Shown in pieces: positions 3,239 to 49,464 of a stretch of DNA of 64,000 nucleotides. Source of the stretch: Acidobacteriota bacterium (GTDB taxonomy: Bacteria; Acidobacteriota; Vicinamibacteria; Vicinamibacterales; CAVVIG01). Both the position numbers and the translations under genes were made by a program. The stretch's first letter is position 1; every line of letters begins with the position of its first letter. The notes beneath the pieces are model-generated. The model saw nothing but the letters and a program-made list of their open reading frames with translations, ran no database searches and had not been told where the DNA came from. Where the stretch lies: positions 3,693 to 67,692 of the forward strand of contig JADZED010000049.1 in NCBI GenBank assembly GCA_020850715.1, given 5' to 3'.

Positions 3239-3268
3239 TCTCGGCGGACCGACCGAGCGGATCGCGAG

Positions 3269-5858: not shown

Positions 5859-5896
5859 GCCGGGCCGCGTCGCGGCGTCCGGCAATCAGGAGCGAC

Positions 5897-6274: not shown

Positions 6275-6278
6275 GCCC

Positions 6279-9146: not shown

Positions 9147-9188
9147 GGAGCTGCAGGGAGACGGGGAAGTAGGGAGACAGGTGGGAGA

Positions 9189-9213
9189 GGGAGCGCGCTG
9201 ATCGGCGCGCCCC
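9189..9213. terminator. GC-rich hairpin between convergent gcvP and the aminotransferase gene (possible bidirectional terminator)
   Basis: ggga-gcgcgc / tgatcg loop / gcgcgc-ccc. There is no clear U-tract on either strand. Confidence 0.3.
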
Positions 9214-9249
9214 TTCCTCGTGCGAACCAGCGCGGGGGCGCTCGGCCGC

Positions 9250-10164: not shown

Positions 10165-10202
10165 GAAGTCCGCCGCGCAAAACCCTGGAGTAAGATGCCC
10201 GG

Positions 10203-11750: not shown

Positions 11751-11787
11751 GAACCTGAAGCCGAATCCAGGAGTTGGCGCGCGGGCG

Positions 11788-12201: not shown

Positions 12202-12258
12202 AGGGCGCCGGAGCCATGCGCCCGAAACCGCGCCACGGGCCCGATGATCCGTTCCGTG

Positions 12259-16778
<4,520 letters not shown>

Positions 16779-19553: not shown

Positions 19554-19749
19554 CCCCCCCGCCGGCTGCAAGGAGCGCCGCCACCATGCCCGCGGCGCGG
19601 ATTCAACGACTTACCGGCGATGATCCACGCCGGGTGGCATTTGCTGCCGTGCGGGCGTGCCTCCCGGCGTGCAGAGACTGATCAAAGAGTGCGTCGACGC
19701 CGATACCCTGTGTGTCCTATTCTCTAAGCCCATCTGGAGAGCGAGTCCC

Positions 19750-26306: not shown

Positions 26307-26579
26307 TCACTTGGGCAGAATTCGTTCGACTTCGCCGTGCGGGCGCGGAATCACGTGGACAGACACGAGCTCGCCCACGCGCCGCGCGGCGGCGGCGCCC
26401 GCGTCGGTCGCCGCCTTCACGGCGCCGACGTCGCCGCGGACCATCACGGTCACGTAGCCGGCGCCGATGTACTCCTTGCCGACCAGCACGACGTTCGCCG
26501 CCTTGACCATCGCATCGGCGGCCTCGATCGATCCGATGAGTCCGCGGGTTTCAACCAGCCCGAGCGCTTCGGCCGCCAT
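26307..26579 (-). CDS. Bacterial microcompartment shell protein, BMC-H (PduA/EutM/CcmK-type single BMC domain)
   Basis: [81 protein letters not shown] is the canonical BMC-domain sequence pattern. Confidence 0.88.
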
Positions 26580-26598
26580 GGCGCGGAACTCTAGCAAA

Positions 26599-26628: not shown

Positions 26629-26716
26629 GCCGCTCCCGTCCGACAGCGCAACTGGCGAGCAGCCCGGGTGAGGCTCGGACCATCGCATGATCGTGCAGAA
26701 TGGGCGCAGCCCGGCC

Positions 26717-27595
26717 ATGAACGCGACGACAACCCTGTGCACGCTGCTCGCGAGCGCGCTGTTGGCGTGCGGCTGCGGCAGGCCGGTGGAGTCCGAGCCT
26801 GCCGTCGCGACCCCGTCGGTCGCGCTCAGCCACGATCGCGCGCCGCTCGGCAGCCCGATCGACATCACCTACAGATTCGTTCCGGAGCCCGGCGCGAGCT
26901 TCGACGAGGACTACCGCGTCATGGTCCACGTCGTCGACATCGACGACGAGCTGATGTGGACCGACGACCACGACCCGCCGGTCCCGACGACCCAATGGAA
27001 GGCGGGGACGCCGGTCGAGTACACGCGCACCGTGTTCATTCCGGTGTATCCGTACGTCGGCGAGGCGTCGATCCAGGTGGGCCTGTACTCGACGCGCGGC
27101 GAGAAGCGCCTCGCGCTCTCCGGCAACGACACCGGCCAGCGCGCGTATGCGGTCGCGCGGCTGCAGCTGCTGCCGCAGACCGAGAACATCTTCACGCTGT
27201 TCAAGGATGGCTGGCACCAGGCGGAAGTGGCCGACACCAACACGTCGGTCGAATGGCAGTGGACGAAGAAGGACGCGACGCTGGCGTTCAAGAACCCGAA
27301 GAAGGACGCGACCTTCTACCTTGACGCGGACAACCCGGGCAACGTCTTCCACGACACGCAGCTGGTTACCGTGTCGATCAACGGGACGGTGGCACGGCAG
27401 TTCAGTCTCGCGCCGACCGAGCGTACCCTGCAGCGGATCCCGCTGCCGGCCGCCCAGCTCGGCGAGGGCGAAATGATTAGCCTCCAGATCGGCGTCGACA
27501 AGACGTTCGTGCCCGCGCTGGTGCCGCAGTCGACCAACCAGGATGCCCGAGAGCTCGGCATCCGTGTGTTCCATGCCTTCGTGGACGCTCGATGA
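26717..27595 (+). CDS. Lipoprotein of unknown function (first gene of the secretion/pilus operon)
   Basis: Signal peptide plus lipobox [21 protein letters not shown] recognised no catalytic motif. Its stop overlaps the next start (ATGA). Confidence 0.6.
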
Positions 27596-28251
27596 CGAGG
27601 CGGCCGGCGTGCTCGGCGGCCGTCGTGTCCCTGGCGTTGATCGCGTGCGGCGCCGCGCCTGCGAGCGCCGAACTGGCATTCTTCGCCACCGGGCGGACGC
27701 TTTCCATCAGCGGTCATCACCTGGAGGGCGGTGCGCTCGTGCTGACGCTGCGCAGCGGCGGCACGATCATCTGTGAACCGTCGATGATCTCCTCGATCGA
27801 GCCAGACGAGGTGCCGTATCCCGAGCCGCCGGTGGCGCAGGTCCCGCGCAGGGCGCCTGCGGCCGCCGCGCCGGCGTCCGCCGCGCGCTACGCAGCGGCG
27901 ATCGAACGGGTGTCGACGGCCGAGGGGGTCGATCCGGATCTCGTGCGTGCGGTGATTCAGGTGGAGTCGGCGTATCGTGCCGAGGCTCGATCGCCCAAAG
28001 GCGCGATGGGGCTGATGCAGCTGATGCCGTCGATCGCGCGGCAGTACGGCCTGGACGACCCGTTCGATCCGGTGGCGAACCTCGCGGCGGGCATCAGACA
28101 CCTGAAGCGTCTGCTGCTGCGCTATCCGCCGGCGCTGGCGCTGGCCGCCTACAACGCCGGCGAGGGCGCGGTGGCGCGCTTTGGCGGCATCCCGCCCTAT
28201 CCGGAGACGCGCGCGTATGTCTCGCGCGTGCTCGCCCTGGCGGGGAGCTGA
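27592..28251 (+). CDS. Soluble-lytic-transglycosylase (SLT, GH23) domain lipoprotein
   Basis: Lipobox SLALIACG. SLT motifs VIQVESAYRAEARSPKGAMGLMQLMP and AAYNAGEGAV. Confidence 0.85.
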   Translation: MTRRPACSAAVVSLALIACGAAPASAELAFFATGRTLSISGHHLEGGALVLTLRSGGTIICEPSMISSIEPDEVPYPEPPVAQVPRRAPAAAAPASAARYAAAIERVSTAEGVDPDLVRAVIQVESAYRAEARSPKGAMGLMQLMPSIARQYGLDDPFDPVANLAAGIRHLKRLLLRYPPALALAAYNAGEGAVARFGGIPPYPETRAYVSRVLALAGS

Positions 28252-28304: not shown

Positions 28305-29534
28305 TTGCTACAATTGGACGCCGTGGAATACCGAGCTCGACTGGCATCGGCGACCGGTGAGATCACCGAAGGCGTGTATGCCGCCGAGAGCGAGTCGCGC
28401 CTGCGCCACGAGCTCGAAGAGAAGGGGCTCCACGTCCTCTCTCTCCGGCCGAAGCGTGCGCTCGTCGCGAGGCTGCCGCTGCCGGTGCGGCCGGCGGTGC
28501 CCACGCGGGAGTTCCTCGTCTTCAACCAGGAGCTGGCGACGCTGCTGAAGGCCGGCATGCCGCTGGTCCAGTCGCTCGATCTGCTGAAGCGCCGCGTCGC
28601 CTCGCCGGTATTCAAGTCGCTGCTCGAAGACGTGCACGACAAAGTGCGAGCCGGCACGGCGCTCTCGGACGCCTTCGCGGCGCACGGCGACCTCTTTCCG
28701 CGCGTCTACACCGCGTCGCTGCTCGCCGGGGAGCGCAGCGGCAACCTCGACGCCGTCCTGCGGCGCTATGTCGAGTACACGAAGGTCGTGGCGGCGGTGA
28801 AGCGGAAGACCGTCTCGGCGCTGGTCTATCCCTTCGTGCTGATCGCGCTCGCGGTCGCCCTGGTGGGGATCATCGTCTTGAAGGTCGTGCCCGCCTTCTC
28901 CGACTTCTATGCCGCGTTCGGCGCGCAGCTGCCCTTGATCACGCGCGTGATCGTTGCCGTCTCCGAGGCGCTCCGTGCGGAGTGGTCCGCGATCGTGCTG
29001 GCCACGGCCGCGGCCGGGGTGGCCCTGGCCGCCTGGATCCGCCGGCCAGGGCGGCAGGCGCAGCTCGATCGACTCGTGCTCGGCCTGCCGGGGATCGGGC
29101 CGACCGCGCGGAAGTTCGCGACGTCCCAGATGGCGCGAACGCTGGCCACGCTGCTGGGCGGCGGGCTGCCGCTGGTCAACGCCCTGGACATCGCCGCGCG
29201 TTCGGTGGGCAACCAGCACATCGGCGGGCAGCTCGACATCGTGGCCGTGCGGGTACGCGAAGGAGAGTCGTTCGCGGCGGCGCTCGAGCGGCGCGGGGCG
29301 TTTCCCGAGGTCGCGGTGAAGATGGCCGAGGTGGGCGAGTCGACCGGCGCGCTGCAGGAGATGCTCAACACGGTCGCCGACTTCTACGACGAGGAGATCG
29401 CGACCAGCCTCGAGCGCTTCGTCACGCTGGTCGAACCGGCGCTGCTCGTGATCATGGGCGTCGTCATCGCCGGCCTGCTCCTTGCGCTGTACATGCCGCT
29501 CTTCCAGCTCAGCTCGGTGCTCGCGGCCACCTAA
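28305..29534 (+). CDS. GspF/PilC-family inner-membrane platform protein
   Basis: 409 aa with two T2SSF repeats (FNQELATLLKAGMPLVQSL... and ARTLATLLGGGLPLVNAL...) and three TM segments. The start is TTG. Confidence 0.9.
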   Translation: MLQLDAVEYRARLASATGEITEGVYAAESESRLRHELEEKGLHVLSLRPKRALVARLPLPVRPAVPTREFLVFNQELATLLKAGMPLVQSLDLLKRRVASPVFKSLLEDVHDKVRAGTALSDAFAAHGDLFPRVYTASLLAGERSGNLDAVLRRYVEYTKVVAAVKRKTVSALVYPFVLIALAVALVGIIVLKVVPAFSDFYAAFGAQLPLITRVIVAVSEALRAEWSAIVLATAAAGVALAAWIRRPGRQAQLDRLVLGLPGIGPTARKFATSQMARTLATLLGGGLPLVNALDIAARSVGNQHIGGQLDIVAVRVREGESFAAALERRGAFPEVAVKMAEVGESTGALQEMLNTVADFYDEEIATSLERFVTLVEPALLVIMGVVIAGLLLALYMPLFQLSSVLAAT

Positions 29535-29537: not shown

Positions 29538-31193
29538 ATGTCGTCCGCAAATCCGAACCCCGCCGATCTTCATCTCGGCACGGCCGAACCGGGCCCGGTC
29601 AGCGACGCCGACCGGCGCGCCGAGGTCGAGCAGGCGCGGCACCTGGCCGAACGGTACCGCCTCGAGCTGGTCGACATGGACGCGTTCAGGATCGACCAGG
29701 CGCTGTTCCGATCCATTCCGGCCGACCTGATGCTCCGCTACGGCTTCGTCCCGTACCGGCGCGAAGGGAAGACGCTGGCGATTGTCGTCTCCGATCCGAC
29801 CGATCTGCCGATGATCGACGAGCTGGGCGTGCTGCTGGAGACGCCGATCAAGGTGGCCGTCGGGCCGAAATCCGCGATCGCGGCGATTCTGAAGAAGAGC
29901 GAGAGCTCCACGCGCGTGCTGGAGGATGCGACCGAGAGCTTCCAGTTGCAGCTCCTCAAGGACGAAGACGGGGGCGAGGACAGCCTGACCGTCGAGCGGC
30001 TCACGAGCGACATCAGTCCGGTCATCCGCCTGGTCGACTCGACGATCTACACGGCCATTCAGCGGCGCGCCAGCGACATCCACATCGAGACGGCAGACGA
30101 CGCGGTCCACGTGAAGTACCGGGTCGACGGCGTGCTGCAGCCGGCGATGCGGCCGATCGCGAAGCAGTTTCACAGCCCGATCCTGTCGCGCATCAAGGTG
30201 ATGGCCGAGCTGGACATCGCCGAGAAGCGCGTGCCGCAGGACGGCCGCTTCCGGCTCCGGATGCCCGGCAAGACGATCGACTTCCGCGTCTCGGTGATGC
30301 CGAGCGTCCACGGCGAGGACGCGGTGATCCGCATCCTCGACAAGGAATCGATCAGCGAGCAGTTCACCGAACTGCGGCTCGACATCCTCGGGTTTCCCGA
30401 GCCGGAGCTGAAACGCTTCCGCAAGTACATCGCCGAGCCGTACGGCATGGTCCTGGTCACCGGGCCGACCGGCAGCGGCAAGACGACGACGCTCTACGCC
30501 GCGCTGTCGGAGATCAAGTCGTCGGAAGACAAGATCATCACCATCGAGGATCCGGTCGAGTACCAGCTCAAGGGGATTACGCAGATCCCGATCAACGAGA
30601 AGAAGGGGCTGACGTTTGCCCGCGGCCTCCGCTCGATCCTGCGCCACGATCCCGACAAGATCATGGTGGGAGAGATCCGCGACAACGAAACGGCGCAGAT
30701 CGCCATCAACTCGGCGCTCACCGGGCACCTGGTCTTCACGACCGTGCACGCCAACAACGTGCTCGACGTCCTCGGACGCTTCCTCAACATGGGCGTCGAG
30801 GCCTACCAGTTCGTCTCCGCGCTCAACTGCGTGCTCGCGCAGCGGCTGGTGCGCAATACCTGCCTCCACTGCAAGCGTCCGGTCGCAGTGACGCGCGCCA
30901 TGCTCGAGGAGTCGGGCCTCGATCCGGCGCTCGAGCGCACCCACACCTTCCATGAAGGCCGCGGCTGCATCGAGTGCGGCGGCACCGGCTACAAGGGGCG
31001 GACCGCCATCTGCGAGCTGCTCGATCTGACCGATCGCATCCGCGAGATGATCCTCGAGAAGCGGCCGACCTCCGAGATCAAGAAGGCGGCGCGCGAGGAC
31101 GGCATGCGCTTCCTCCGCGAATCGGCGGTCGAACGCGTGCTCGAAGGGGCGACGACGCTGCGCGAAATCAACAAGGTGACGTTCGTCGAATGA
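29538..31193 (+). CDS. GspE/PilB-family secretion/pilus assembly ATPase
   Basis: T2SSE_N domain at the N-terminus; Walker A GPTGSGKTTT; Asp box; Walker B IMVGEIRD; His box; tetracysteine CLHCK...CIECGGTG. Confidence 0.93.
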   Translation: MSSANPNPADLHLGTAEPGPVSDADRRAEVEQARHLAERYRLELVDMDAFRIDQALFRSIPADLMLRYGFVPYRREGKTLAIVVSDPTDLPMIDELGVLLETPIKVAVGPKSAIAAILKKSESSTRVLEDATESFQLQLLKDEDGGEDSLTVERLTSDISPVIRLVDSTIYTAIQRRASDIHIETADDAVHVKYRVDGVLQPAMRPIAKQFHSPILSRIKVMAELDIAEKRVPQDGRFRLRMPGKTIDFRVSVMPSVHGEDAVIRILDKESISEQFTELRLDILGFPEPELKRFRKYIAEPYGMVLVTGPTGSGKTTTLYAALSEIKSSEDKIITIEDPVEYQLKGITQIPINEKKGLTFARGLRSILRHDPDKIMVGEIRDNETAQIAINSALTGHLVFTTVHANNVLDVLGRFLNMGVEAYQFVSALNCVLAQRLVRNTCLHCKRPVAVTRAMLEESGLDPALERTHTFHEGRGCIECGGTGYKGRTAICELLDLTDRIREMILEKRPTSEIKKAAREDGMRFLRESAVERVLEGATTLREINKVTFVE

Positions 31194-32185
31194 GCGGTCT
31201 CCTCGCGCGCGCCCTTCGTGCCACCTCCGGACCGCCCGCGGCGGTCGAGCTGGCCGCCAATCGCGTATCGGGCGCCAGCATCGAGTGGCGCGGCGCCAGG
31301 CCCTCGATCGCGGCGCACGCCGTCGAGCCGCTGCCCGGGGGAGCGCTCGTGCCGTCGCTGACCGCGCACAACGCGCACGACCGCAAGACGGTCGTCGCCG
31401 CCATCGGCGCCGTGCTCGATCGCATCGGCCGGCCCCGGCGCATCGGGCTCGTGGTGCCCGACGTGGTGGCGAAGATCTCGATCATCCGCTTCGCGCAGCT
31501 GCCGACGCGGCCGCACGACCTCGATCAGCTGGTTCGCTGGCAGGTGCGGAAGACCACGCCGTTCCCCACCGACGAGGCCCGGCTCTCGTGTGCGCCCGGT
31601 CTGGCGTACGACGACGGCACCGACGTGCTGGTCTCGATTGCACGGCGCGAGATCGTCGAGGAGTACGAGAGCCTCTGCGCCGACGCGGGCGCCACCGCCG
31701 GCATCGTCGACATCGCGACGTTCAATATCGTCAACGCCGTGCTGGCGGCCTCCGGCCAGGCGCCGGCCGGCCCCCCGGCCGGCGCCGACACCGGCGACTG
31801 GCTGCTGGTGAACGTCGGCGTGGACTACGTGTCGATGGCACTGCTGCGCGGCTCGTGCGTGATCTTCTTCCGGAACCGCGCGGCCGATTCGGACGGCACG
31901 CTGGCCGACCTCGTCCATCAGTCGGCGATGTACTACGAGGACCGGCTGCAGGGCGCCGGCCTCGGCCGCGTCGTGCTGGCTGGTGCGGCCGAGCACGGGA
32001 TCCGCCACGCGGGCGACGTCGACCAGCTGCGCCGCATGCTCGAGCAGCGGCTGCACACGCCGGTCGACAGCGTCGACCCGCGCGGCGCCGCCGCCCTGAC
32101 GGATCGGATCTCGGCGGCGCCCGCGCTCCTCGACACGCTCGCGCCGCTGGTGGGGCTGCTGCTGCGCGATCGGGTGGCGGCATGA
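31190..32185 (+). CDS. PilM-like actin-fold assembly protein
   Basis: About 331 aa. IGLVVPDVVAKISIIRFAQLPTRPHDLDQLVRWQVRKTTPFP, and position upstream of PilN/PilO-like genes. ATGA overlap with the ATPase gene. Confidence 0.8.
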   Translation: MSGLLARALRATSGPPAAVELAANRVSGASIEWRGARPSIAAHAVEPLPGGALVPSLTAHNAHDRKTVVAAIGAVLDRIGRPRRIGLVVPDVVAKISIIRFAQLPTRPHDLDQLVRWQVRKTTPFPTDEARLSCAPGLAYDDGTDVLVSIARREIVEEYESLCADAGATAGIVDIATFNIVNAVLAASGQAPAGPPAGADTGDWLLVNVGVDYVSMALLRGSCVIFFRNRAADSDGTLADLVHQSAMYYEDRLQGAGLGRVVLAGAAEHGIRHAGDVDQLRRMLEQRLHTPVDSVDPRGAAALTDRISAAPALLDTLAPLVGLLLRDRVAA

Positions 32186-32778
32186 TTCGCACCAACCTCG
32201 CCACGCGTCCTTTCTACAACGAACGGCCGGTGCACGCCGCGCTGGCCGTCCTGGCGGCGCTGGCGATCGTCATCACTCTGTTCAACGTCACGAGCCTGAT
32301 CCGCTCCTCGCGCACCGACACGCGGTTTGGCGCCCAGGCGGCGCGCGACGAGGCGTCGGCGCGCGACCTGCAGGCGGAGGCGGCGCGGCTGCGCGCCACC
32401 GTCGACGCGCACGCGGTGGAGAACGCGTCGGAGGCGGCGCGGCTGGCCAACGACCTGATCGACCGCCGCACCTTCTCCTGGACCGAGCTGTTCAACCGGT
32501 TCGAGGCGACGCTGCCCGACCAGGTGCGCATCACGGCGGTCCGACCGCAGGTCGACGTCGCGAACGGCACCAGGCTGACCATCAACGTGATCGCCGCCGA
32601 CACCGACGACGTCGCCCAGTTCATGGAGAAGCTCGAGGCCACCGGCGCCTTCAAGGACCTGCGCGGTACGAGCCAGGAGCGGATCAACGAGCAGGGGATG
32701 CTCGAGGCGACCCTCGAGACGCGGTATGTGCCTGGCGGCGCCGCCCCCACGGCCGGCGCCGGAGGAGCGCGCCGGTGA
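32182..32778 (+). CDS. PilN-like bitopic assembly protein
   Basis: MIRTNLATRPFYNERP, then a single TM segment (AALAVLAALAIVITLF), a coiled coil and an alpha/beta domain. ATGA overlap. Confidence 0.75.
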   Translation: MIRTNLATRPFYNERPVHAALAVLAALAIVITLFNVTSLIRSSRTDTRFGAQAARDEASARDLQAEAARLRATVDAHAVENASEAARLANDLIDRRTFSWTELFNRFEATLPDQVRITAVRPQVDVANGTRLTINVIAADTDDVAQFMEKLEATGAFKDLRGTSQERINEQGMLEATLETRYVPGGAAPTAGAGGARR

Positions 32779-33353
32779 CGCCGCTCCGACGCGTCCTCGC
32801 CGACAAGCGACGCCTGATCGTTCCCGTCGCGATCGCGCTGCTGGCGAACCTCGGGTTGTATGTGTTCGCCGTGCGCCCGCTCAGCCGCCGGCAGGCGAGC
32901 GTGCAGGATCGGGCCGCCGCCGCCGCCCAGGCCCGGCGCGCGGCGGAGGAGGCGCTCGCTGCGGCCCACGCCCTGGTCGACGGCAAGAGCCGCGCGGACG
33001 AGGAACTCGCCACCTTCTACGACAAGGTGCTGCCGCCGAGCCTCTCCGACGCCAGGCGCATGACATACGCATCGCTGCCGACGCTCGCCCGCAAGACCAA
33101 CGTCACCTTCTCCGAGCGCCGCACCGAGCTGACGCAGACCGACACCACCGGCCGGCCGCTCGGACATCTCCAGATCCGGATGCAGCTCGCCGGCGACTAC
33201 GACAGCATCCGACAATTCATCTACGAGCTCGAAAACGCGCCGGAGTTCCTGATCCTGGACGACGTGGAGCTCGCGCAGAACGATCCGGCGCGGCCGCTCT
33301 CGTTGATCGTCGCGCTCTCGGCCTACTATCGCCTGGGCGACAATGGCATCTGA
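32775..33353 (+). CDS. PilO/GspM-like bitopic assembly protein
   Basis: N-terminal TM segment (IVPVAIALLANLGLYVFAV), a coiled coil, and a C-terminal ferredoxin-like region (LQIRMQLAGDYDSIRQFIYELENAPEFLILDDVEL). GTGA overlap. Confidence 0.65.
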   Translation: MTPLRRVLADKRRLIVPVAIALLANLGLYVFAVRPLSRRQASVQDRAAAAAQARRAAEEALAAAHALVDGKSRADEELATFYDKVLPPSLSDARRMTYASLPTLARKTNVTFSERRTELTQTDTTGRPLGHLQIRMQLAGDYDSIRQFIYELENAPEFLILDDVELAQNDPARPLSLIVALSAYYRLGDNGI

Positions 33354-33888
33354 CTGGCGCCGGCCGCTCCTCTTCGGCGCGGTCGCTTTCGGCCTCCTTC
33401 TTGCGGCCTATCGCCTCTGGCCCCGGACGTCTGCGGGCGCCGCCCCATCGTCGAATCAGGCGGGCACGGCCCGGAACGCGCGATCGGACGCCGAACGTGC
33501 GCCGCTGGCGGGGCCCGACGTGCGGCTCGAGACCCTCGCGGGAGAGCGAACCGCGCCCGGCGCCGGCGGTCGCGACCTGTTTCGTTTCAAGCCGCGCGCG
33601 GCGCCGCCGCCGTCCGAGCCGGCGCGTCCCGCCCCGATGCGCCCCGAGCCGGCCGGCCCGCCGGCAGCCGCCCCCGTGCAGCCGATCGCGTTGAAGTTCA
33701 TCGGGATCATCGACCGCGGCGGGCAGCGGATCGCCGTATTGAGCGATTCGGCGGGCCATGTGGATTACGGCGCGGAAGGGGCCATAATCGGGGGCCGGTA
33801 TCGGGTGCTGAAGATCGGCGTCGAGTCGATCGAAATGGCGCACCTCGATGGGCGCGGACGACAGGTGATTCGGCTCACGGGATCGTGA
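33343..33888 (+). CDS. PilP/GspC-like protein (TM anchor, Pro-rich linker, small beta domain)
   Basis: TM segment LLFGAVAFGLLLAAY, a Pro/Ala linker, and a C-terminal LKFIGIIDRGGQRIAVLSD...GGRYRVLKIGVESIEM beta-domain pattern. Position immediately upstream of the secretin. Confidence 0.5.
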   Translation: MASDWRRPLLFGAVAFGLLLAAYRLWPRTSAGAAPSSNQAGTARNARSDAERAPLAGPDVRLETLAGERTAPGAGGRDLFRFKPRAAPPPSEPARPAPMRPEPAGPPAAAPVQPIALKFIGIIDRGGQRIAVLSDSAGHVDYGAEGAIIGGRYRVLKIGVESIEMAHLDGRGRQVIRLTGS

Positions 33889-36509
33889 TGGATTGCACAT
33901 TGCACATGGCTGATGGTGGACTGGCGGGCCGGCCGGGGCCGCGGCTGACGAACGGCGCCCCGGTCCCGGCGGGCCGCCGGCGTTCGCGCACCGCTGCGGC
34001 CGGACTCCTCGCCCTGCTGGCGCTGGCGGCGGTTGGCTGCGCGGCCTCGCAGGCCTTCAGGCAGGGGGCGGCGGCCACCCGGCGCGGCGACCTCGACGAA
34101 GCGGTCGTCGCGTACCGCCGGGCCGTACAGGCCGATCCCGACAACCCGAACTTCAAGATCGCGCTGGAGCGCGCGATGATGGCCGCCTCGCGCGCGCACC
34201 TCGAGCGGGCGCGCGCCTTCGAGGAGCAGAATCAGCTCGAGGCGGCGCTGAGCGCGTACCGGCTGGCCAGCGAGAACGACGTCACCAACCGCAGCGCCGC
34301 CGCGAAGGTGAGCGAACTGGAGCGGACGATCCGCGACCGCATCGAAGCGGCGCGGCCGGAGCCGCCGATCACGGCGCTGCGCGCGCGCGCGGCCGCCGCG
34401 GCCGCCGAGCCGATCCTCAACCCGGCGTCGCGCGAGCCGCTGACCGTGCGCTTCCCGAATGCGAATGTCCGCGACGTCCTCAACTTCATCGGCAACGCCA
34501 CCGGAATCAACATCTCGTACGATCGCGAGGTTCCCGATCGCCAGACGCAGATCCAGCTCGACGGCGTCACGCTCGAGCAGGCGCTGAACCAGATCATGAC
34601 GATGAACGGCCTGTCGTACAAGGTCGTCAACGAACGCTCGATCTTCGTCTTTCCGGACACGCCGCAGAAGCACAATCAGTACGACGAGCAGGTCGTGCGC
34701 ACCTTCTACATCTCGCACGCGGACCCGACCGAACTCGGGCAGCTCTTGAGCACCATCATGCGCATGCCGGGCGTGGCCATCCAGCCGGCGATCGTCCCGA
34801 ACAAGACCGCCAACACGATCACGGTCCGCGGGACGACTTCGGTCGTGCAGATCATCGAGCGGATCATCGCGCAGAACGACAAGCCGCGGGCCGAGATCGT
34901 CGTCGACGTCGAGATCCTCGAGGTGAACCGGACCCGCGCCAAGGCCTATGGCCTCAACCTCTCGGACTACGCGCTCGGCACGCTGTTCTCGCCTGAAGTA
35001 TCGCCGAGCGGATCGACCTCCGGTGGCGGGTCGGGCAGCGGCGGGAGCGGGGGGACCGGAGGCGGCACCACCAGCACCACCGGCGGCGCTTCGACGGCGC
35101 CGGGCAAGCTCGCCTCGCCGCCGCCGTTCAACCTGAACACGATCTCGCGCGGCGTCACGACCGCCGATTTCTATCTCGCGGTGCCCACCGCGATCGTGAA
35201 ATTCCTGGAGAGCGACAGCCAGACGAAGCTGATCGCGAAGCCGCAGTTGCGCGGCGCCGAGGGCAGCAAGCTCACGCTGAAGCTCGGCGACCGCATCCCG
35301 GTGATTTCCACCGCCTTCACGCCGATCGCCGGCGGCGGCGCCGGCGTGAACCCGCTCAGCACCTACAACTACCAGGACATCGGCGTGAACATCGACATGA
35401 CGCCGCGCGTGACGCTCGAAGGGGACATCATCCTCGATCTCACTCTCGAAAACCTGTCGCTCGGCGCCAACGTCTCGGTGGCCGGCAACGACGTGCCGTC
35501 GTTCGGCCAGCGCAGCGTCACGACCCGCCTGCGGCTGCGCGACGGCGAGTCGAATCTGCTCGCCGGTCTGCTGCGCGAAGACGAGCGCCGCTCGCTCGAG
35601 GGATTCCCGGGGGCAATTCATCTGCCGATACTGAAGCAGCTGTTCTCGGCGAACGACACGAGCATCGCCCAGACCGACATCGTGATGCTGCTGACGCCCC
35701 ACGTCATCCGCACCCACGAGCTCAGCGAGACCGATCTCGCGCCGATCTACATCGGCTCGCAGCAGAACCTGGCGATTGGCGGCGCGCCGCCGCTCATCGC
35801 CGGAAGCCCCGAGCCGGAGCCGCAGCCCGTCCCGGCGCCGGCCGGACCTGCGGCGCCTGTGCCGGAGCCGGTCGGCCCGCAGACCCGAGCACCGGCGGGC
35901 ACGACCATCGTCGCCCCGCCGGGCACCTCGCCCGTGCCGGGCACCGTGCTCATCCCGACACCGGCACCGCTGCCGACGCCGCCGCCGCAGCCGGAGCCCA
36001 CGCCGCCGGCCGCGCCGGATCCGGCCGCAGCCGCGCCGGCGCCGGAGCCCGCACCGGCAGCGCTCGACAACGTGACGACGCAGACGCCGGGAGTCGGTTC
36101 GGCGCTGCTGATCATCTCGCCGCCCGGGCCGGCCATGCGCGTGGGCGGCGGGCCCTACACGGTGCCCATCTCGATCACCAACGTCTCTCGGCTCTCGACG
36201 ATCGCGCTCACGATGACCTTCGATCCCGGCGTGCTCCGCGTACGCACCGTGCAGGAAGGAAGCTTCATGCGCAGCGGCGGCGTCACGGTGAGCTTCGTGC
36301 AGCAGGTGACCGGAGGGCGCATCGACATCACGCTGAGCCGCGCGGCGGACGCCACTGGCGCCTCGGGCACGGGGCTGCTGGCCGCGGTGCTCTTCGATGC
36401 CATCGGTCCCGGCGCGTCGACGCTGTCCCTGGCCGGCAGCGCGACCGGACCGGGCGGCACCGCGATGGGGCTGCAATTCCGGCCGGTCGCCGTCACCGTA
36501 GAGCCGTGA
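33885..36509 (+). CDS. Secretin (GspD/PilQ family) lipoprotein with N-terminal TPR-like region, Gly/Ser/Thr-rich insertion, Pro-rich linker and C-terminal cohesin-like domain
   Basis: Lipobox LALAAVGC. TPR-like helices (GDLDEAVVAYRRAVQADPDN..., NQLEAALSAYRLA). N0/N1 domains (VRDVLNFIGNATGINISYD...). Secretin core (KLIAKPQLRGAEGSKLTLKLGDRIPV...FPGAIHLPILKQLFS...IVMLLTPHVI). The last 135 aa show a cohesin pattern (YTVPISITNVSRLSTIALTMTFDPGVLRVRTVQEGSFM). Confidence 0.9.
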   Translation: MMDCTLHMADGGLAGRPGPRLTNGAPVPAGRRRSRTAAAGLLALLALAAVGCAASQAFRQGAAATRRGDLDEAVVAYRRAVQADPDNPNFKIALERAMMAASRAHLERARAFEEQNQLEAALSAYRLASENDVTNRSAAAKVSELERTIRDRIEAARPEPPITALRARAAAAAAEPILNPASREPLTVRFPNANVRDVLNFIGNATGINISYDREVPDRQTQIQLDGVTLEQALNQIMTMNGLSYKVVNERSIFVFPDTPQKHNQYDEQVVRTFYISHADPTELGQLLSTIMRMPGVAIQPAIVPNKTANTITVRGTTSVVQIIERIIAQNDKPRAEIVVDVEILEVNRTRAKAYGLNLSDYALGTLFSPEVSPSGSTSGGGSGSGGSGGTGGGTTSTTGGASTAPGKLASPPPFNLNTISRGVTTADFYLAVPTAIVKFLESDSQTKLIAKPQLRGAEGSKLTLKLGDRIPVISTAFTPIAGGGAGVNPLSTYNYQDIGVNIDMTPRVTLEGDIILDLTLENLSLGANVSVAGNDVPSFGQRSVTTRLRLRDGESNLLAGLLREDERRSLEGFPGAIHLPILKQLFSANDTSIAQTDIVMLLTPHVIRTHELSETDLAPIYIGSQQNLAIGGAPPLIAGSPEPEPQPVPAPAGPAAPVPEPVGPQTRAPAGTTIVAPPGTSPVPGTVLIPTPAPLPTPPPQPEPTPPAAPDPAAAAPAPEPAPAALDNVTTQTPGVGSALLIISPPGPAMRVGGGPYTVPISITNVSRLSTIALTMTFDPGVLRVRTVQEGSFMRSGGVTVSFVQQVTGGRIDITLSRAADATGASGTGLLAAVLFDAIGPGASTLSLAGSATGPGGTAMGLQFRPVAVTVEP

Positions 36510-36973
36510 TCGGCAGACAGAACGGCTACACGTTTGTCGAGCTGATCGTCGTCGCCACCATCGTGATGATTCTGGCGTCGGCCATCATGCCGCTCGCCAG
36601 AGTGACCGCGACGCGGCAGCGCGAGGTCGAACTGCGCCGCGCGTTGCGCGAGATGCGGGTTGCCATCGACAAGTACAAGGATCAGGCCGACCTGGGCAAC
36701 ATCAGCCCGACGGAAATCAAGGTCGGGAGCGAGAACTACCCGCCCACGCTGCAGGTCCTGGTCGACGGCGTGACGGCGGCGAACGACGCCACCGGCCGCA
36801 AGCTGAAGTTCCTGCGGCGGATTCCGGTCGACCCGATGACGCGCGGCGACTGGGGGCTGCGGTCGTACCAGGACGAGCCCGACGCGCGCGCCTGGGGCGG
36901 CCAGAACGTGTTCGATGTCCATACCACCTCGGAGGGCACCGCGCTTGACGGCACGAAATACTCCGACTGGTAG
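36506..36973 (+). CDS. GspG-like major pseudopilin (copy 1)
   Basis: Prepilin N-terminus MIGRQNG|YTFVELIVVATIVMILASAIMP. GspG-type core LREMRVAIDKYKD... . C-terminus SEGTALDGTKYSDW. Confidence 0.85.
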   Translation: MIGRQNGYTFVELIVVATIVMILASAIMPLARVTATRQREVELRRALREMRVAIDKYKDQADLGNISPTEIKVGSENYPPTLQVLVDGVTAANDATGRKLKFLRRIPVDPMTRGDWGLRSYQDEPDARAWGGQNVFDVHTTSEGTALDGTKYSDW

Positions 36974-37358
36974 GCCGGCGGCCGGTTTCACGCTCATCGA
37001 ACTGCTGGTCGTGGTGTCGCTGATCATGCTGATCTCGACGATGGCGATGACGCAGTACCGCAACGGGGTCGTCCATGCGAAAGAAGCGGTGCTGCAAGAG
37101 GATCTGTTCCGGCTGCGGGACGCGATCGATCAGTATTACGCCGACAAGGGGCAGTATCCGCAGTCGCTCGACGCGCTGGTGACCGACGGCTACGTACGGC
37201 AGATTCCGGAGGATCCGATCACCGGGAGCGCCGCGACGTGGCAGGAAGTTCCGGCCGAGCCCGATCCGAACAACCCGATGGGGGAGCCTGGCGTATTCAA
37301 CGTCAGGAGCGGCTCGGAGGGGACGGCGCTCGATGGGACGAAGTATTCGGAGTGGTAG
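36915..37358 (+). CDS. GspG-like major pseudopilin (copy 2)
   Basis: G|FTLIELLVVVSLIMLISTMAM. LRDAIDQYYADKGQYPQSLDALVTDGYVRQIPEDPITG is the GspG hallmark. C-terminus SEGTALDGTKYSEW. The only ATG/GTG start in frame (36915) overlaps copy 1 by 59 nt, so the start is uncertain. Confidence 0.8.
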   Translation: MSIPPRRAPRLTARNTPTGRPAAGFTLIELLVVVSLIMLISTMAMTQYRNGVVHAKEAVLQEDLFRLRDAIDQYYADKGQYPQSLDALVTDGYVRQIPEDPITGSAATWQEVPAEPDPNNPMGEPGVFNVRSGSEGTALDGTKYSEW

Positions 37359-37498: not shown

Positions 37499-38782
37499 CT
37501 ACTTCACGATGATGATCGTCGTCGCCGTCGCCTGGCCGCCGCTCGTGTCGGTCGCCGTGACGCTTGGGTAGTACGAACCCGCCTGCGCGTAGGTGTGCGG
37601 CACCTTGATGCCGGTGCCGCTCTGCGCACCTAGATTCACCTGAGGGGACCCGTCTCCGAAATTGACGACGACGCTCTGGATCGTGGCCCCGGTGGCCGCG
37701 GTGGCCACCGTGGCCGTGATGGTGAAGGTGACCAGCGTGACGTTCGCGTTCGGGTTCGCGTTGTCCGGCAGGATGCTGACGGTCGGAGGCATCTTCGCCG
37801 CCACGGTCACCTGGGCAAGGCCGGCGAACGAATCGCCGTTGGAATCGGTGACCGTCGCCGTGATGGTGTAGGTGCCCGATGAGCTGTAGGTGTGCGAAAG
37901 CGGCACCGTGCCCGATGCCGCGCCGAGCGCCTGCGACTGGCCGTCCCCGAAGTTCACGACGACATTGCGAATCGCGCTGCCGCCAACCGGATCGACCTTG
38001 AGCGTCAAGGCCACGGGCAGGCCGGCAACCGGCGAGCTCGTCGTGATCGTGAACGCGATGCCCGGCGCGGCGTTGACCGTCACCGTGATCGAGTTCGACG
38101 GTGCGGCCGTCGTGGTCGTGCCTGATGTCGAGGCGACCCCGGCGGTGGCGGTAACCTTCGTCGTCTTTCCAGTGGTCAACGTCGTTCTGGCGGCGCCCGA
38201 GGCGTCGGTCGTGACGACCGCCAGACCCACGGAGCCGGCGTCGGTGCTGAACGTCACGGGAATGCCGGCGAGGGGATTGCCCGACGAATCGTTCACCGTC
38301 GCCGTGATCGTCGACGACCCGCCGCTCGACGGCAGCGACAGCGGGGACGCGCTCATCACGATGCTGCTGACCGCCGCGGCGCCGACCGCGATCTTCACCG
38401 CGCCGGTCGCGCCGGCCGACACGCCGCCGGAGATTGCCGTGATCGTCGCCGTGCCCGATGCGCCGTTGGCCGAGAACGTCGTCGCCGCCCGGCCGCTGAT
38501 GTCGGTCTCGACCTCCGCCGGCGCGACCGTGCCGAGCGTCGTCGTAAAGGTGACCAGCGTGCCCGCGTGCGGCGGCGTGCCCGATGGCTCGATCACCTGC
38601 GCCACAATCGTCGTCTTGCCGGTGGCGGAGAGCGACGTGGCGAGTGCATTGAGCGTGATCGTCGAACCCGACGGCGCGAGCAGCGGCACCTTCTGACAGG
38701 CGACCGCCGCGGCCACGAGCGCCGCGAGCGCGCACGCCGAGACGGCGCGGAGAGCGCGTGTTATCATGAAAGCGCGCAACAT
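37499..38782 (-). CDS. Surface/periplasmic lipoprotein with tandem bacterial Ig-like (Big) repeats and two PKD-like domains
   Basis: Lipobox AAAVAC. Repeated ...GTATITA...G...VTF.T..G... modules. Two PKD-type motifs (VVVNFGDGQSQ...HTYSSSGTYTITATVTDSNG and VVVNFGDGSPQ...HTYAQAGSYYPSVTATDTSG). The start is ambiguous within 38767-38794. Confidence 0.75.
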   Translation of the reverse strand: MLRAFMITRALRAVSACALAALVAAAVACQKVPLLAPSGSTITLNALATSLSATGKTTIVAQVIEPSGTPPHAGTLVTFTTTLGTVAPAEVETDISGRAATTFSANGASGTATITAISGGVSAGATGAVKIAVGAAAVSSIVMSASPLSLPSSGGSSTITATVNDSSGNPLAGIPVTFSTDAGSVGLAVVTTDASGAARTTLTTGKTTKVTATAGVASTSGTTTTAAPSNSITVTVNAAPGIAFTITTSSPVAGLPVALTLKVDPVGGSAIRNVVVNFGDGQSQALGAASGTVPLSHTYSSSGTYTITATVTDSNGDSFAGLAQVTVAAKMPPTVSILPDNANPNANVTLVTFTITATVATAATGATIQSVVVNFGDGSPQVNLGAQSGTGIKVPHTYAQAGSYYPSVTATDTSGGQATATTIIIVK

Positions 38783-38792
38783 CTTAGCTTCC

Positions 38793-39485
38793 ATGAAGTT
38801 AGCGGGTCAAGCGCGCGAAGACGGCTACGCAATGGCGGCGCTGCTCGTGGGCATGGCGGTCATGGCCGTCATGACGAGCGTCGCCATGCCGGTCTGGTCG
38901 CGCATGGTGCAGCGGGAGAAGGAAGAGGAACTCGTCTTCCGCGGCCAGCAGTACGCGCGGGCCATCGGGCTGTTCCAACGCAAGTTCGCCAACGCTGCGC
39001 CGCCGAGCCTCGACCTCCTCGTCGAGCAGAAGTTCCTGCGCAAGAAATACAAGGACCCGATCACCAACGACGACTTCGTGCCGATCACGCAGGCGCAGGC
39101 GCAGCAGCCGGGGGCGGCCGGCGCGCTCACCCCGGGTAGCGGCGGGCAGACCCCGGTTCCGGGGAGCGGCCGCGCACCGGCGCGCCCGTCGGGCACTGGC
39201 GCCGCGGGCGGTCGAGGCCCTGGCACGCCGGCTGGAGGCATTGTCGGCGTGACGAGCAAGAGCACCCGCGAATCGATTCGTCTCTACAACGGGCGCAATC
39301 ACTACAACGAGTGGCAGTTCGTGTACGCACCGCCGGCGGCCACCCCCGCGCAGGGCGCGCGGCCGGGGGCGGCGGGTCCTGGTCTGGGCGGCCGTCCCGG
39401 AGCGCAGGGACGGCCGCCGGGCACCGCTCGCGAGGCGCCGCTCATGGGCTCGCCGCGGCCCCGACCGCGCCCCGCCGGCCGTTGA
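38793..39485 (+). CDS. Atypical pseudopilin-like protein (prepilin-like N-terminal helix without Glu5, Gly/Pro-rich segments)
   Basis: MKLAGQAREDG|YAMAALLVGMAVMAVMTSVAMPVW, followed by EEELVFRGQQYARAIGLFQRKF and IVGVTSKSTRESIRLYNGRNHYNEWQFVY. The start is ambiguous (38766 or 38793). Confidence 0.6.
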   Translation: MKLAGQAREDGYAMAALLVGMAVMAVMTSVAMPVWSRMVQREKEEELVFRGQQYARAIGLFQRKFANAAPPSLDLLVEQKFLRKKYKDPITNDDFVPITQAQAQQPGAAGALTPGSGGQTPVPGSGRAPARPSGTGAAGGRGPGTPAGGIVGVTSKSTRESIRLYNGRNHYNEWQFVYAPPAATPAQGARPGAAGPGLGGRPGAQGRPPGTAREAPLMGSPRPRPRPAGR

Positions 39486-49412: not shown

Positions 49413-49464
49413 CGGAGCGACCAGATTAGCACCATCGCTGATACGAGGCGGCGCACGGACGCGC

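What the first reader, a model, noticed from the sequence alone, without database searches (positions are those of the whole stretch)
33885..36509. Secretin with three accessory parts: N-terminal TPR region, a Gly/Ser/Thr-rich insertion in the secretin core, and a C-terminal cohesin-like domain on a Pro-rich stalk
The 874-aa lipoprotein has a TPR-like segment (nt ~34050-34335) before the N0/N1 and secretin domains. It has a low-complexity insertion, SPSGSTSGGGSGSGGSGGTGGGTTSTTGGASTAPG (nt ~34990-35125). After the secretin core there is a ~105-aa Pro-rich linker (nt ~35780-36100). The final 135 aa (nt 36101-36506) follow the cohesin pattern: GGGPYTVPISITNVSRLSTIALTMTFDPGVLRVRTVQEGSFM...GRIDITLSRA...GTGLLAAVLFDAIGPG. 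Cohesins are protein-docking modules that bind dockerins. One tethered to a secretin could recruit a partner protein to the outer-membrane pore. I saw no dockerin-like (DxNxDGxxxxxD duplicated) sequence in any ORF of this window. Any partner would therefore be encoded elsewhere or be non-canonical.
Basis: partly seen in the sequence, partly recalled or inferred. Interest (0 to 1): 0.65.

Follow-up and report, generated by a model that had tools for sequence, protein, structure and literature searches.

The report
Secretin pore with tethered cohesin module
This gene encodes the outer-membrane pore of a pilus/secretion machine that carries a genuine cohesin docking domain on a long proline-rich tether, a fusion conserved across the soil order Vicinamibacterales, with an unknown binding partner.

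Summary
ORF 33885-36509 (+) encodes an 874-aa lipoprotein secretin with these parts:
- lipobox Cys52
- TPR region, aa 54-172
- N0/STN and N1 domains
- Gly/Ser/Thr-rich loop, aa 369-405
- secretin core, aa 441-612
- Pro-rich linker, aa 641-735
- C-terminal module, aa 737-873

The C-terminal module passes Pfam's cohesin threshold, though narrowly (25.1 vs 24.1 bits). Its model is confident (pLDDT 92), and all 50 best PDB fold matches are cohesins.

The fusion is not an assembly artefact. The GTDB scan found relatives of the cohesin module at 213 places, and all 85 related loci examined have the same gene order (PilC/B/M/N/O, a PilP-like gene, the secretin, then pseudopilins).

One refinement: the Gly/Ser/Thr run lies in the variable beta-lip region upstream of the Pfam secretin core, not inside it.

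I found no dockerin in the window or in about 1 Mb of related loci, so the partner, the function and the side of the membrane remain inferred. My best reading is a self-piloted liposecretin ringed by 12-15 tethered periplasmic docking modules. I found no paper describing this fusion. I rate it a new variant of a known kind, of moderate interest.

The parts
33885..36509 (+). Whole gene: 874-aa liposecretin with TPR, N0, N1, beta-lip, secretin core, Pro-rich linker and cohesin
   Evidence: ORF. Pfam domains. Thousands of full-length homologs with the same architecture.
33885..34040 (+). Signal peptide and lipobox ending at Cys52 (LAAVGC)
   Evidence: C52 invariant and G51/A53 at least 90% conserved in 92 sequences. 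Candidate start codons at 33885, 33888 and 33906.
34044..34400 (+). TPR helical-repeat region (aa 54-172), read as a built-in pilotin-like module
   Evidence: TPR_1, TPR_2 and TPR_11 above the Pfam gathering score. Consensus-TPR PDB matches down to E 1e-28. AlphaFold2 helices 35-172 with pLDDT >90. The pilotin role is inferred by analogy.
34440..34928 (+). N0/STN domain (aa 186-266) and N1-type Secretin_N domain (aa 270-348)
   Evidence: PF07660 and PF03958 above the gathering score. AlphaFold2 alpha/beta domains with pLDDT 80-90.
34974..35159 (+). Beta-lip-position region (aa 364-425), including the Gly/Ser/Thr-rich low-complexity loop (aa ~369-405, nt 34989-35099)
   Evidence: pLDDT <50 for aa 364-425. 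Loop length 11-47 aa and 66% G/S/T in 128 homologs. It aligns to the variable region of GspD between N3 and the secretin core. The domain order N3, beta-lip, secretin is stated in PMC10653833.
35205..35720 (+). Secretin core (aa 441-612)
   Evidence: PF00263 E 3.5e-29. PDB sequence matches to GspD, PilQ, pIV and RcpA. Foldseek matches to PilQ, InvG and PulD.
35721..35804 (+). Conserved post-secretin segment (aa 613-640, DLxPIYIGSQQNLxxGGxPPLIA)
   Evidence: 70% mean identity with no gaps in 128 homologs. Two short low-confidence helices in the model. Role unknown.
35805..36089 (+). Pro-rich flexible linker (aa 641-735)
   Evidence: 35% Pro on average, length 64-138 aa, 39% identity. pLDDT <60.
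35910..35960 (+). Near-invariant short motif inside the linker (aa 676-692, VAPPG(S/T)SPVPGTVL(V/I)P)
   Evidence: P678, G680, P683, P685 and G686 invariant in 92 sequences. Column conservation 0.9-0.99. It degenerates to a PG(I/V)VP(L/I)xP patch in the most divergent orthologs. AlphaFold2 does not dock it in the monomer model.
36093..36503 (+). C-terminal cohesin module (aa 737-873)
   Evidence: PF00963 25.1 bits vs 24.1 cutoff. 2xdh cohesin E 3e-4. AlphaFold2 pLDDT 92.4. Top 50 Foldseek PDB matches are all cohesins. The family profile also hits multi-cohesin proteins.
27592..28251 (+). SLT lytic transglycosylase at the head of the cluster
   Evidence: PF01464 E 3e-24. Found at the same position in L001 and L084.
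28305..29534 (+). Platform protein (GspF/PilC-like)
   Evidence: PF00482 E 8e-58. GspF and PilC NCBIfam hits, both below their cutoffs.
29538..31193 (+). Assembly ATPase (GspE/PilB-like) with an N-terminal MshEN domain
   Evidence: PF00437 E 8e-132 and PF05157 E 3e-19. GspE and PilB score almost equally.
31190..33353 (+). PilM (31190-32185), PilN (32182-32778) and PilO/GspM-like (32775-33353)
   Evidence: PF11104, PF05137 and PF10741. Start positions.
33343..33888 (+). 181-aa membrane-anchored protein at the PilP/GspC position
   Evidence: It sits between the PilO-like gene and the secretin. It has an N-terminal hydrophobic segment, a Pro-rich spacer and a C-terminal beta-rich part. No Pfam, NCBIfam or PDB hit. 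Present in 77 of 85 related loci. The PilP-like identity is inferred.
36506..37358 (+). Two GspG-like pseudopilins (36506-36973 and 36915-37358)
   Evidence: N_methyl and T2SSG hits. Best NCBIfam hit is GspG, below cutoff. A pseudopilin lies directly downstream of the secretin in 80 of 85 loci.
37499..38794 (-). Lipoprotein with Big_1 and PKD Ig-like domains, usually adjacent to the cluster
   Evidence: PF02369 and PF18911. Present in 67 of 85 loci but absent next to the cluster in L085. It is a candidate cargo or accessory protein only by position.
38766..39485 (+). Third pilin-like protein (hydrophobic N-terminus GYAMAALLVGMAV, no Glu5)
   Evidence: Translation. Weak ComGE hit. Present in 65 of 85 loci.

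Best explanation
Shown:
- The gene encodes the outer-membrane secretin of a lineage-specific type IV filament machine. By domain content this machine sits between a type II secretion system and a type IVa pilus.
- The machine is a conserved feature of Vicinamibacterales (Acidobacteriota).
- The secretin is a lipoprotein with an N-terminal TPR region and a C-terminal module that has a true cohesin sequence and fold.

Inferred:
- The lipidated TPR region acts as a built-in pilotin, like the separate TPR lipoproteins PilF, PilW, Tgl and TadD. It would take the protein to the outer membrane and help its beta-lip insert.
- The Gly/Ser/Thr-rich loop is the surface-facing turn of that beta-lip.
- Secretin C-termini lie on the periplasmic side, just under the outer membrane. 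The Pro-rich tether (64-138 residues) would therefore hang the cohesin in the periplasm.
- A 12-15-mer pore would then carry a crown of 12-15 mobile docking modules.
- These modules would bind a protein encoded elsewhere in the genome. That protein could be cargo or an accessory factor, with a dockerin-like or non-canonical ligand, and would be concentrated at the pore entrance.
- The near-invariant linker motif PPG(S/T)SPVPGTV is a second, separate binding element of unknown partner.
For: Domain identities:
- Pfam and NCBIfam on the protein.
- PDB sequence matches for the full protein and for the TPR region.
- Cohesin by sequence.
- Cohesin by fold: pLDDT 92.4, and the top 50 PDB matches are all cohesins.

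Selection on the module: the cohesin is 70% identical across 128 homologs against 74% for the secretin core, while the linker is 39% identical and varies in length.

Orthology and breadth:
- More than 3,400 homologs found. The 120 best listed are all about 800-890 aa except one 682-aa entry.
- The same architecture holds down to about 39% identity.
- The GTDB scan found 213 places encoding a relative of the cohesin module. The 80 loci kept are nearly all labelled Vicinamibacterales or Acidobacteriota.
- Gene order is conserved in 85 related loci.

Relatives of this cohesin clade take part in cohesin-dockerin systems:
- The family profile hits proteins with 4-7 cohesin copies.
- One of these sits beside a canonical Dockerin_1 protein.

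Lipoprotein status: Cys52 is invariant.

Literature basis for the inferred steps:
- TPR lipoprotein pilotins act on the secretin beta-lip, and T2SS/T3SS pilotins bind the C-terminal S-domain (PMC10653833).
- The C-terminal residues of the secretin RcpA bind the outer-membrane lipoprotein TadD (PMC10499894).
- HxcQ is described as a self-piloted liposecretin (a title in the reference list of PMC12475490).
Against: - No partner was found. There is no dockerin-like module in the window or in about 1 Mb of related loci. These loci all cover the same genomic neighbourhood, so this says little about the rest of the genome.
- The Pfam cohesin score is only just above threshold.
- The periplasmic location is inferred from other secretins and was not tested.
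- AlphaFold2 did not dock the linker motif or the TPR region onto anything in the monomer model.
- Conservation within the cohesin did not single out the dockerin-binding sheet.
- The system reaches no curated NCBIfam cutoff for GspD, PilQ, GspE, PilB or GspG. Whether it secretes proteins or builds a pilus is therefore unknown.
Confidence: 0.55

Rival explanations
1. The cohesin is displayed on the cell surface. The Pro-rich stalk reaches the outside, and the cohesins capture dockerin-bearing enzymes as they leave the pore. This would be a secretin-anchored, cellulosome-like assembly.
For: - Pro-rich linkers followed by cohesins are the usual layout of extracellular scaffoldins (general knowledge).
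- The nearest non-secretin relatives are multi-cohesin proteins with T9SS sorting domains, so they are surface proteins.
- Another relative sits next to a canonical dockerin protein.
Against: - In solved secretins the C-terminus and S-domain are periplasmic and meet periplasmic lipoprotein pilotins (PMC10653833 and PMC10499894).
- No known route takes a secretin C-terminal extension across the outer membrane.
- No dockerin was found nearby.
Confidence: 0.1
2. The cohesin is a self-assembly or stabilising element. It binds the conserved linker motif, or the TPR region, of neighbouring protomers. This would form a collar that clamps the multimer, replacing the S-domain and pilotin.
For: - A near-invariant hydrophobic motif lies in the same linker.
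- The motif (V-x-A-PPG-S/T-S/T) resembles the start of the cohesin's first strand (I-I-S-PPG-T/P-T). This would fit strand exchange or a decayed duplicate (read directly from the alignment).
- No external partner was found.
Against: - AlphaFold2 leaves the motif unstructured and undocked in the monomer model (pLDDT <50).
- The motif decays in divergent orthologs while the cohesin is kept.
- Both linker segments vary widely in length (sd 6.6 and 9.8 residues), which fits a fixed collar poorly.
Confidence: 0.15
3. The module keeps the cohesin fold but does not dock a protein. It could bind peptidoglycan or a polysaccharide, or act only as a folded spacer or plug.
For: - The Pfam score is marginal.
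- Identity to characterised cohesins is 10-24%.
- No conserved surface patch could be identified.
Against: - It is about as conserved as the pore-forming core over a deep lineage.
- All the best structural neighbours are protein-docking cohesins.
Confidence: 0.12
4. The fusion is an artefact, a frameshift or mis-assembly that joins a secretin gene to a separate cohesin gene.
For: Short cohesin-only proteins exist in the databases.
Against: - Most of those short proteins come from contigs of only about 1-6 kb, so they look like fragments cut at contig ends.
- The one checked on a long contig is a piece of a frameshifted secretin: in L003 the secretin is split into several ORFs.
- The intact fusion recurs in the full-length homologs. 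It also occurs in all 85 related loci examined, and the secretin and cohesin parts of the window ORF share one reading frame.
Confidence: 0.01

Closest known systems
Liposecretins and self-piloted secretins (HxcQ of Pseudomonas aeruginosa)
   Same: An N-terminal lipobox on the secretin itself. No separate pilotin gene is seen in the cluster. HxcQ is cited through the reference list of PMC12475490.
   Different: This protein adds a roughly 120-residue TPR region after the lipid anchor and a C-terminal tether with a cohesin. As far as I know, HxcQ has neither.
TPR lipoprotein pilotins PilF, PilW, Tgl (type IVa pili) and TadD (Tad pili)
   Same: A lipidated TPR module associated with a secretin. 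According to PMC10653833 and PMC10499894, these proteins help the secretin insert and multimerise.
   Different: Here the TPR module is fused in cis to the secretin N-terminus. The only direct similarity is a weak Tgl hit (E 0.039), so the pilotin function is inferred.
Amuc_1098 family type IV pilus outer membrane protein (NCBIfam NF042912)
   Same: A secretin with an N-terminal TPR-like region. There is a partial hit at E 1e-11 over aa 48-151.
   Different: The score is 43.5 bits against a cutoff of 750, so this protein is not a member. Only the N-terminal part of that profile matched this protein.
Secretin S-domain plus pilotin (PulD-PulS, GspD-AspS)
   Same: A C-terminal element of the secretin used to dock another protein at the periplasmic face of the outer membrane (PMC10653833).
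   Different: The S-domain is short and follows the barrel directly. Here a roughly 135-residue beta-sandwich cohesin sits on a tether of about 100 residues.
Non-cellulosomal cohesins (Archaeoglobus fulgidus 2XDH; Clostridium perfringens glycoside-hydrolase cohesins 2JH2, 2W1N, 2VO8)
   Same: They are the best sequence and fold matches. Like this module, they are single cohesins outside cellulosomes.
   Different: None of them is part of a secretin or of any Gram-negative envelope machine. Identity is only 10-24%.
Canonical GspD (T2SS) and PilQ (T4aP) secretins
   Same: N0 and N1 domains, a secretin core, and neighbouring PilM/N/O, ATPase, platform and pseudopilin genes.
   Different: Below both curated cutoffs: GspD 130 vs 351 bits and PilQ 116 vs 284 bits. 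No AMIN domains. It also carries the extra TPR and cohesin modules.

Membership tests
Secretin superfamily (PF00263) | Secretin domain above the Pfam gathering score | tested here: met
   102 bits vs 27.5, E 3.5e-29. PDB sequence and fold matches to GspD, PilQ, InvG and pIV.
Secretin superfamily (PF00263) | Periplasmic N0/STN and N1-type domains upstream of the core | tested here: met
   PF07660 31.3 bits vs 28.4, and PF03958 34.2 bits vs 28.2. Both domains are modelled.
Secretin superfamily (PF00263) | Encoded with type IV filament / T2SS assembly genes | tested here: met
   T2SSF, T2SSE, PilM, PilN, PilO-like and pseudopilin genes flank it. The order is conserved in 85 loci.
Secretin superfamily (PF00263) | Forms a 12-15-mer outer-membrane channel | not testable with these tools
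   Only monomer prediction was available.
T2SS secretin GspD (TIGR02517 equivalog) | Score above the curated cutoff | tested here: not met
   130.4 bits vs 351.35.
Type IV pilus secretin PilQ (TIGR02515) | Score above the curated cutoff | tested here: not met
   116.5 bits vs 284.35. No AMIN domain was detected.
Cohesin (PF00963) | HMM score above the gathering score | tested here: met
   25.1 bits vs 24.1, which is marginal. Orthologs score up to 43 bits. Precomputed PF00963 hits appear on most listed homologs.
Cohesin (PF00963) | Nine-stranded beta-sandwich (jelly-roll) fold matching solved cohesins | tested here: met
   Model pLDDT 92.4 and pTM 0.86. The top 50 Foldseek PDB matches are all cohesins, E down to 1e-9, TM 0.6-0.78.
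Cohesin (PF00963) | Binds a dockerin (or dockerin-like) module | not testable with these tools
   This needs a binding experiment or multimer modelling with a candidate partner.
Cohesin (PF00963) | A cognate dockerin is encoded in the same genome | tested here: inconclusive
   None in the 64-kb window or in 85 related loci (about 1 Mb, all the same neighbourhood). The positive control in L086 was recovered. The rest of the genome could not be searched.
TPR lipoprotein pilotins (PilF/PilW/Tgl/TadD type) | Lipobox and TPR repeats | tested here: met
   Invariant Cys52. TPR hits. Helical repeats with pLDDT >90.
TPR lipoprotein pilotins (PilF/PilW/Tgl/TadD type) | A separate polypeptide that acts on the secretin | tested here: not met
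   It is fused to the secretin N-terminus. At most it is a cis analogue, not a family member. The Tgl model hit is only E 0.039.
Secretin S-domain | Short helical C-terminal domain directly after the barrel that binds a pilotin | tested here: inconclusive
   The conserved aa 613-640 segment has two very short, low-confidence helices. No sequence match to known S-domains was seen.

The most novel reading that the evidence does not exclude
The 12-15 tethered cohesins form a capture device built into a Gram-negative envelope machine. They would fish for dockerin-like tagged proteins and deliver or hold them at the secretin. This could happen in the periplasm, as cargo recruitment, or at the cell surface, as retention of secreted enzymes. 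Either way it would be the first cohesin-dockerin-type docking used by a type II secretion or type IV pilus system, in one of the most abundant soil bacterial orders.
Probability: 0.25. Interest if true: 0.8.

Novelty: new variant of a known kind. Interest (0 to 1): 0.55.

Why it matters
How secretins recognise cargo and accessory proteins is still only partly understood. Known accessory modules on secretins include AMIN domains, S-domains and lipid anchors. I know of no described case of a dedicated, widely used protein-docking module such as a cohesin on a secretin.

A cohesin conserved on the pore of a core envelope machine across Vicinamibacterales points to a specific, selectable interaction. 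That interaction could be found by pull-down. Finding it would give a handle on what this uncharacterised machine exports or assembles in a major but poorly studied soil lineage.

It would also extend cohesin biology beyond cellulosomes and Gram-positive or archaeal surfaces. The tether-plus-cohesin could be a ready-made tag for attaching proteins to secretins in engineered systems.

Tried and rejected
1. Frameshift or mis-assembly. Rejected. Most of the short cohesin-only database proteins come from contigs of about 1-6 kb. The one I checked on a long contig is a piece of a broken secretin gene.

2. Dockerin search. A strict and then a relaxed duplicated Ca-loop pattern found nothing in the window or in the 85 related loci. 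The relaxed pattern recovered the control dockerin in L086.

3. Linker-like motif [ST]P[VIL]PG[ST] in the third pilin-like ORF (nt 39150). I considered it as a possible shared ligand. It is absent from all but one of the 65 orthologs, so it is a chance match.

4. Mapping a conserved binding face on the cohesin. Weighted conservation over 250 orthologs highlights mainly structural Gly/Pro plus R769 and R785, with no bias toward one sheet.

5. Linker as a fixed-length ruler. Rejected, because both linker segments vary in length.

6. Looking for cohesin-less close relatives, to date the fusion. Nearly all of the 120 best hits of the divergent ortholog P0327 are again 777-872 aa with the same architecture, so no outgroup was reached.

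7. Assigning the machine to T2SS or T4aP. NCBIfam scores are similar for both, and all are below their cutoffs. Fold search of the full model matches all secretin classes.

8. Identifying the 181-aa upstream protein as PilP or GspC by sequence. No Pfam, NCBIfam or PDB hit, so it remains an inference from position.

9. Literature. Four searches found no paper on a secretin-cohesin fusion. The review of non-cellulosomal cohesins by Peer et al. (2009) is not in the library, so I could not check whether it lists this architecture.

Full report
**1. The observation**

The window has about 68-70% G+C. ORF 33885-36509 (+) is 874 aa and has the high third-position G+C typical of real genes here. Its first possible start codons, GTG 33885 and ATG 33888, overlap the stop codon of the upstream ORF. 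ATG 33906 is the start used for the database copy, P0001.

Pfam finds the following:
- TPR_1, TPR_2 and TPR_11 at aa 58-89
- STN at aa 208-257
- Secretin_N at aa 271-336
- Secretin at aa 441-609 (E 3.5e-29)
- Cohesin PF00963 at aa 759-839, at 25.1 bits against a gathering score of 24.1

NCBIfam gives partial GspD, PilQ, MshL and SctC hits, all far below their curated cutoffs. It also gives a partial hit to the TPR-bearing Amuc_1098 secretin family.

**2. The C-terminal module is a cohesin**

- By sequence, the best PDB match of the last 148 residues is 2xdh, a non-cellulosomal cohesin (E 3e-4). Cellulosomal cohesins follow. A profile built from 43 orthologous modules gives the same answer.
- By fold, AlphaFold2 with that alignment gives an all-beta model with pLDDT 92.4 and pTM 0.86.
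- All 50 best Foldseek matches in the PDB are cohesins. They start with 2xdh (E 1e-9, TM 0.73/0.78) and the Clostridium perfringens cohesin-like modules.
- The same profile, searched against 1.84 billion representative proteins, finds two classes of hit. One is the orthologous secretins. The other is proteins with 4-7 tandem cohesins.
- Some of the tandem-cohesin proteins carry T9SS sorting domains.
- One tandem-cohesin protein lies next to a protein with a textbook duplicated dockerin.

The module therefore belongs to the cohesin family, and its nearest non-secretin relatives work in cohesin-dockerin settings.

**3. The fusion is real and widespread**

- The full protein has more than 3,400 database homologs. 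The 120 best listed are about 800-890 aa (one is 682 aa), at 61-81% identity. Most already carry a precomputed PF00963 hit.
- Representatives down to about 39% identity keep the whole architecture: TPR, STN, Secretin_N, Secretin, linker, cohesin.
- Nearly all of the 120 best relatives of a divergent member are again 777-872 aa with the same domains.
- A scan of one genome per GTDB species found 213 places encoding a relative of the cohesin module. The 80 loci kept are almost all labelled Vicinamibacterales or Acidobacteriota, including subgroup 6, with a few evidently mislabelled bins.
- Most short cohesin-only database proteins come from contigs of about 1-6 kb. The one checked on a long contig is a piece of a frameshifted secretin.

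Across 128 full-length homologs, identity to the window protein is:

| Region | Identity | Length range |
|---|---|---|
| Cohesin | 70% | 127-134 aa |
| Secretin core | 74% | not measured |
| TPR region | 66% | not measured |
| Pro-rich linker | 39% | 64-138 aa |
| Gly/Ser/Thr loop | 43% | 11-47 aa |

The module is under purifying selection comparable to that on the pore itself.

**4. Gene context**

The secretin sits in a conserved cluster:
- SLT transglycosylase
- GspF/PilC-like platform protein
- GspE/PilB-like ATPase with an MshEN domain
- PilM, PilN and a PilO/GspM-like protein
- a 181-aa membrane-anchored protein at the PilP/GspC position
- the secretin
- two GspG-like pseudopilins
- on the opposite strand, a Big_1/PKD lipoprotein
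- a third pilin-like protein

The order is kept in 85 related loci, within the limits of the flanks fetched. A pseudopilin lies directly downstream of the secretin in 80 of 85. Even the flanking housekeeping genes are syntenic in divergent members. This marks one orthologous, vertically inherited locus.

None of the components reaches a curated GspD/E/F/G or PilQ/B/C cutoff. I therefore call it a type IV filament machine of undetermined output.

**5. The other accessory parts**

- *Lipoprotein.* Cys52 of the lipobox is invariant in 92 sequences, so the protein is a lipoprotein.
- *TPR region.* The full-length model gives confident helical repeats for aa 35-172. This region matches consensus TPR proteins strongly.
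- *Pilotin analogy.* Separate TPR lipoproteins (PilF, PilW, Tgl, TadD) are the pilotins of type IV and Tad secretins. Tgl, PilF and PilW are proposed to hold the secretin's unfolded beta-lip (PMC10653833 and PMC10499894).
- *Self-piloting.* HxcQ is cited as a self-piloted liposecretin. By analogy I read the lipidated TPR region as a cis pilotin. This is an inference.
- *Gly/Ser/Thr run.* It lies between the last N-domain and the start of PF00263, in a stretch AlphaFold2 leaves unmodelled (aa 364-425, pLDDT <50).
- *What the run aligns to.* It aligns to the variable region of GspD between N3 and the core. [quoted passage not shown]
- *Reading of the run.* It is best described as a low-complexity, length-variable loop within the beta-lip region, probably its outward turn. 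It is not an insertion inside the conserved core.

**6.

The Pro-rich linker is not uniformly variable. A motif at aa 676-692, VAPPG(S/T)SPVPGTVL(V/I)P, is nearly invariant. P678, G680, P683, P685 and G686 are invariant in 92 sequences.

The Pro-rich stretches on both sides vary in length. In the most divergent orthologs the motif decays to a hydrophobic PG(I/V)VP(L/I)xP patch. AlphaFold2 does not dock it in the monomer. It looks like a short linear binding motif, and its partner is unknown.

The segment just after the barrel (aa 613-640) is also conserved.

**7. How it most likely works**

- *Shown:* a liposecretin of a conserved envelope machine carries a selected, correctly folding cohesin on a flexible tether.
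- *Inferred, location:* in characterised secretins the C-terminus meets periplasmic lipoprotein pilotins. The tether and cohesin should therefore be periplasmic, just under the outer membrane.
- *Inferred, copy number:* there should be one cohesin per protomer, so 12-15 per pore.
- *Inferred, function:* the simplest role is to bind and concentrate a specific protein at the pore. That protein could be cargo or an accessory factor, and it is encoded elsewhere.
- *Partner search:* I found no dockerin in the window or in about 1 Mb of related loci, with a working positive control. All these loci cover the same neighbourhood, so the genome-wide question stays open.

Rivals are:
- surface display with capture of secreted dockerin enzymes;
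- a self-binding collar that uses the linker motif or the TPR region;
- a non-docking role for the fold.

An artefactual fusion is excluded.

**8. Comparison with known systems, and novelty**

The parts are all known kinds: secretin, liposecretin, TPR pilotin-like region and non-cellulosomal cohesin. The combination is what is unusual, above all a cohesin tethered to a secretin C-terminus.

Four full-text searches found no paper that describes it. The main review of non-cellulosomal cohesins could not be read. Automated annotations call these proteins 'general secretion pathway protein D', 'secretin N-terminal domain-containing protein' or 'hypothetical protein'.

The architecture is already visible in precomputed Pfam hits, so it is not hidden from databases.

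I rate it a new variant of a known kind with moderate interest (0.55). It is a clear, lineage-wide and testable oddity, but it has no identified partner and no evidence yet on function or topology.

Noticed in passing
window 35910-35960 (aa 676-692 of the secretin): A near-invariant motif, VAPPG(S/T)SPVPGTVL(V/I)P, lies inside the otherwise variable Pro-rich linker. Its first half (x-PPG-S/T-S/T) resembles the start of the cohesin's first strand (IISPPGxT). It could be a short linear binding motif or the remnant of a duplicated strand.
   Followed up: partly
window 35721-35804 (aa 613-640): A conserved segment directly after the secretin barrel (DLxPIYIGSQQNLxxGGxPPLIA) has two very short, low-confidence helices in the model. 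It may be a reduced S-domain-like element.
   Followed up: no
window 38766-39485 (+): A third pilin-like gene has a hydrophobic N-terminus (GYAMAALLVGMAV) but no Glu5, and a Gly/Pro-rich tail. It is present in 65 of 85 related loci and looks like a minor pseudopilin.
   Followed up: partly
window 37499-38794 (-): A lipoprotein with Big_1 and PKD Ig-like domains lies next to the cluster in 67 of 85 loci but not in L085. By position it could be a cargo or surface component of the machine.
   Followed up: partly
window 26687-27595 (+): A 302-aa predicted lipoprotein with no Pfam or NCBIfam hit sits just upstream of the SLT gene at the head of the cluster. A gene of similar size occupies the same place in L001, L084 and L085.
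   Followed up: no
window 26307-26582 (-) and 24434-26230 (-): A single BMC-H-type microcompartment shell protein lies next to a long aldehyde dehydrogenase with a Pro/Ala-rich C-terminal extension. The pair is syntenic in L001, L084 and L085. No other microcompartment genes are nearby.
   Followed up: no
window 47052-49673 (-): An 873-aa protein has two LptF_LptG matches. It appears to be a fused LptF-LptG lipopolysaccharide export permease.
   Followed up: no
window 19657-22479 (+): A 940-aa protein has only weak coiled-coil-type Pfam hits (COG4_N, BLOC1_2, NPV_P10). It is probably a long coiled-coil protein of unknown function.
   Followed up: no
window 36506-36973 and 36915-37358 (+): Both pseudopilins end in nearly the same motif (SEGTALDGTKYSDW and SEGTALDGTKYSEW). 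From memory, I read this as the C-terminal Ca-binding loop typical of GspG, not as a dockerin. The two ORFs overlap by 59 nt as called, so the second probably starts further downstream.
   Followed up: partly
locus L086 (63% G+C, from another organism), 2017-16032: This is a non-cellulosomal cohesin-dockerin gene cluster. It has a 1,274-aa protein with about six cohesins, two membrane-anchored single-cohesin proteins, and a 1,118-aa TSP3-repeat protein ending in a canonical duplicated dockerin.
   Followed up: partly
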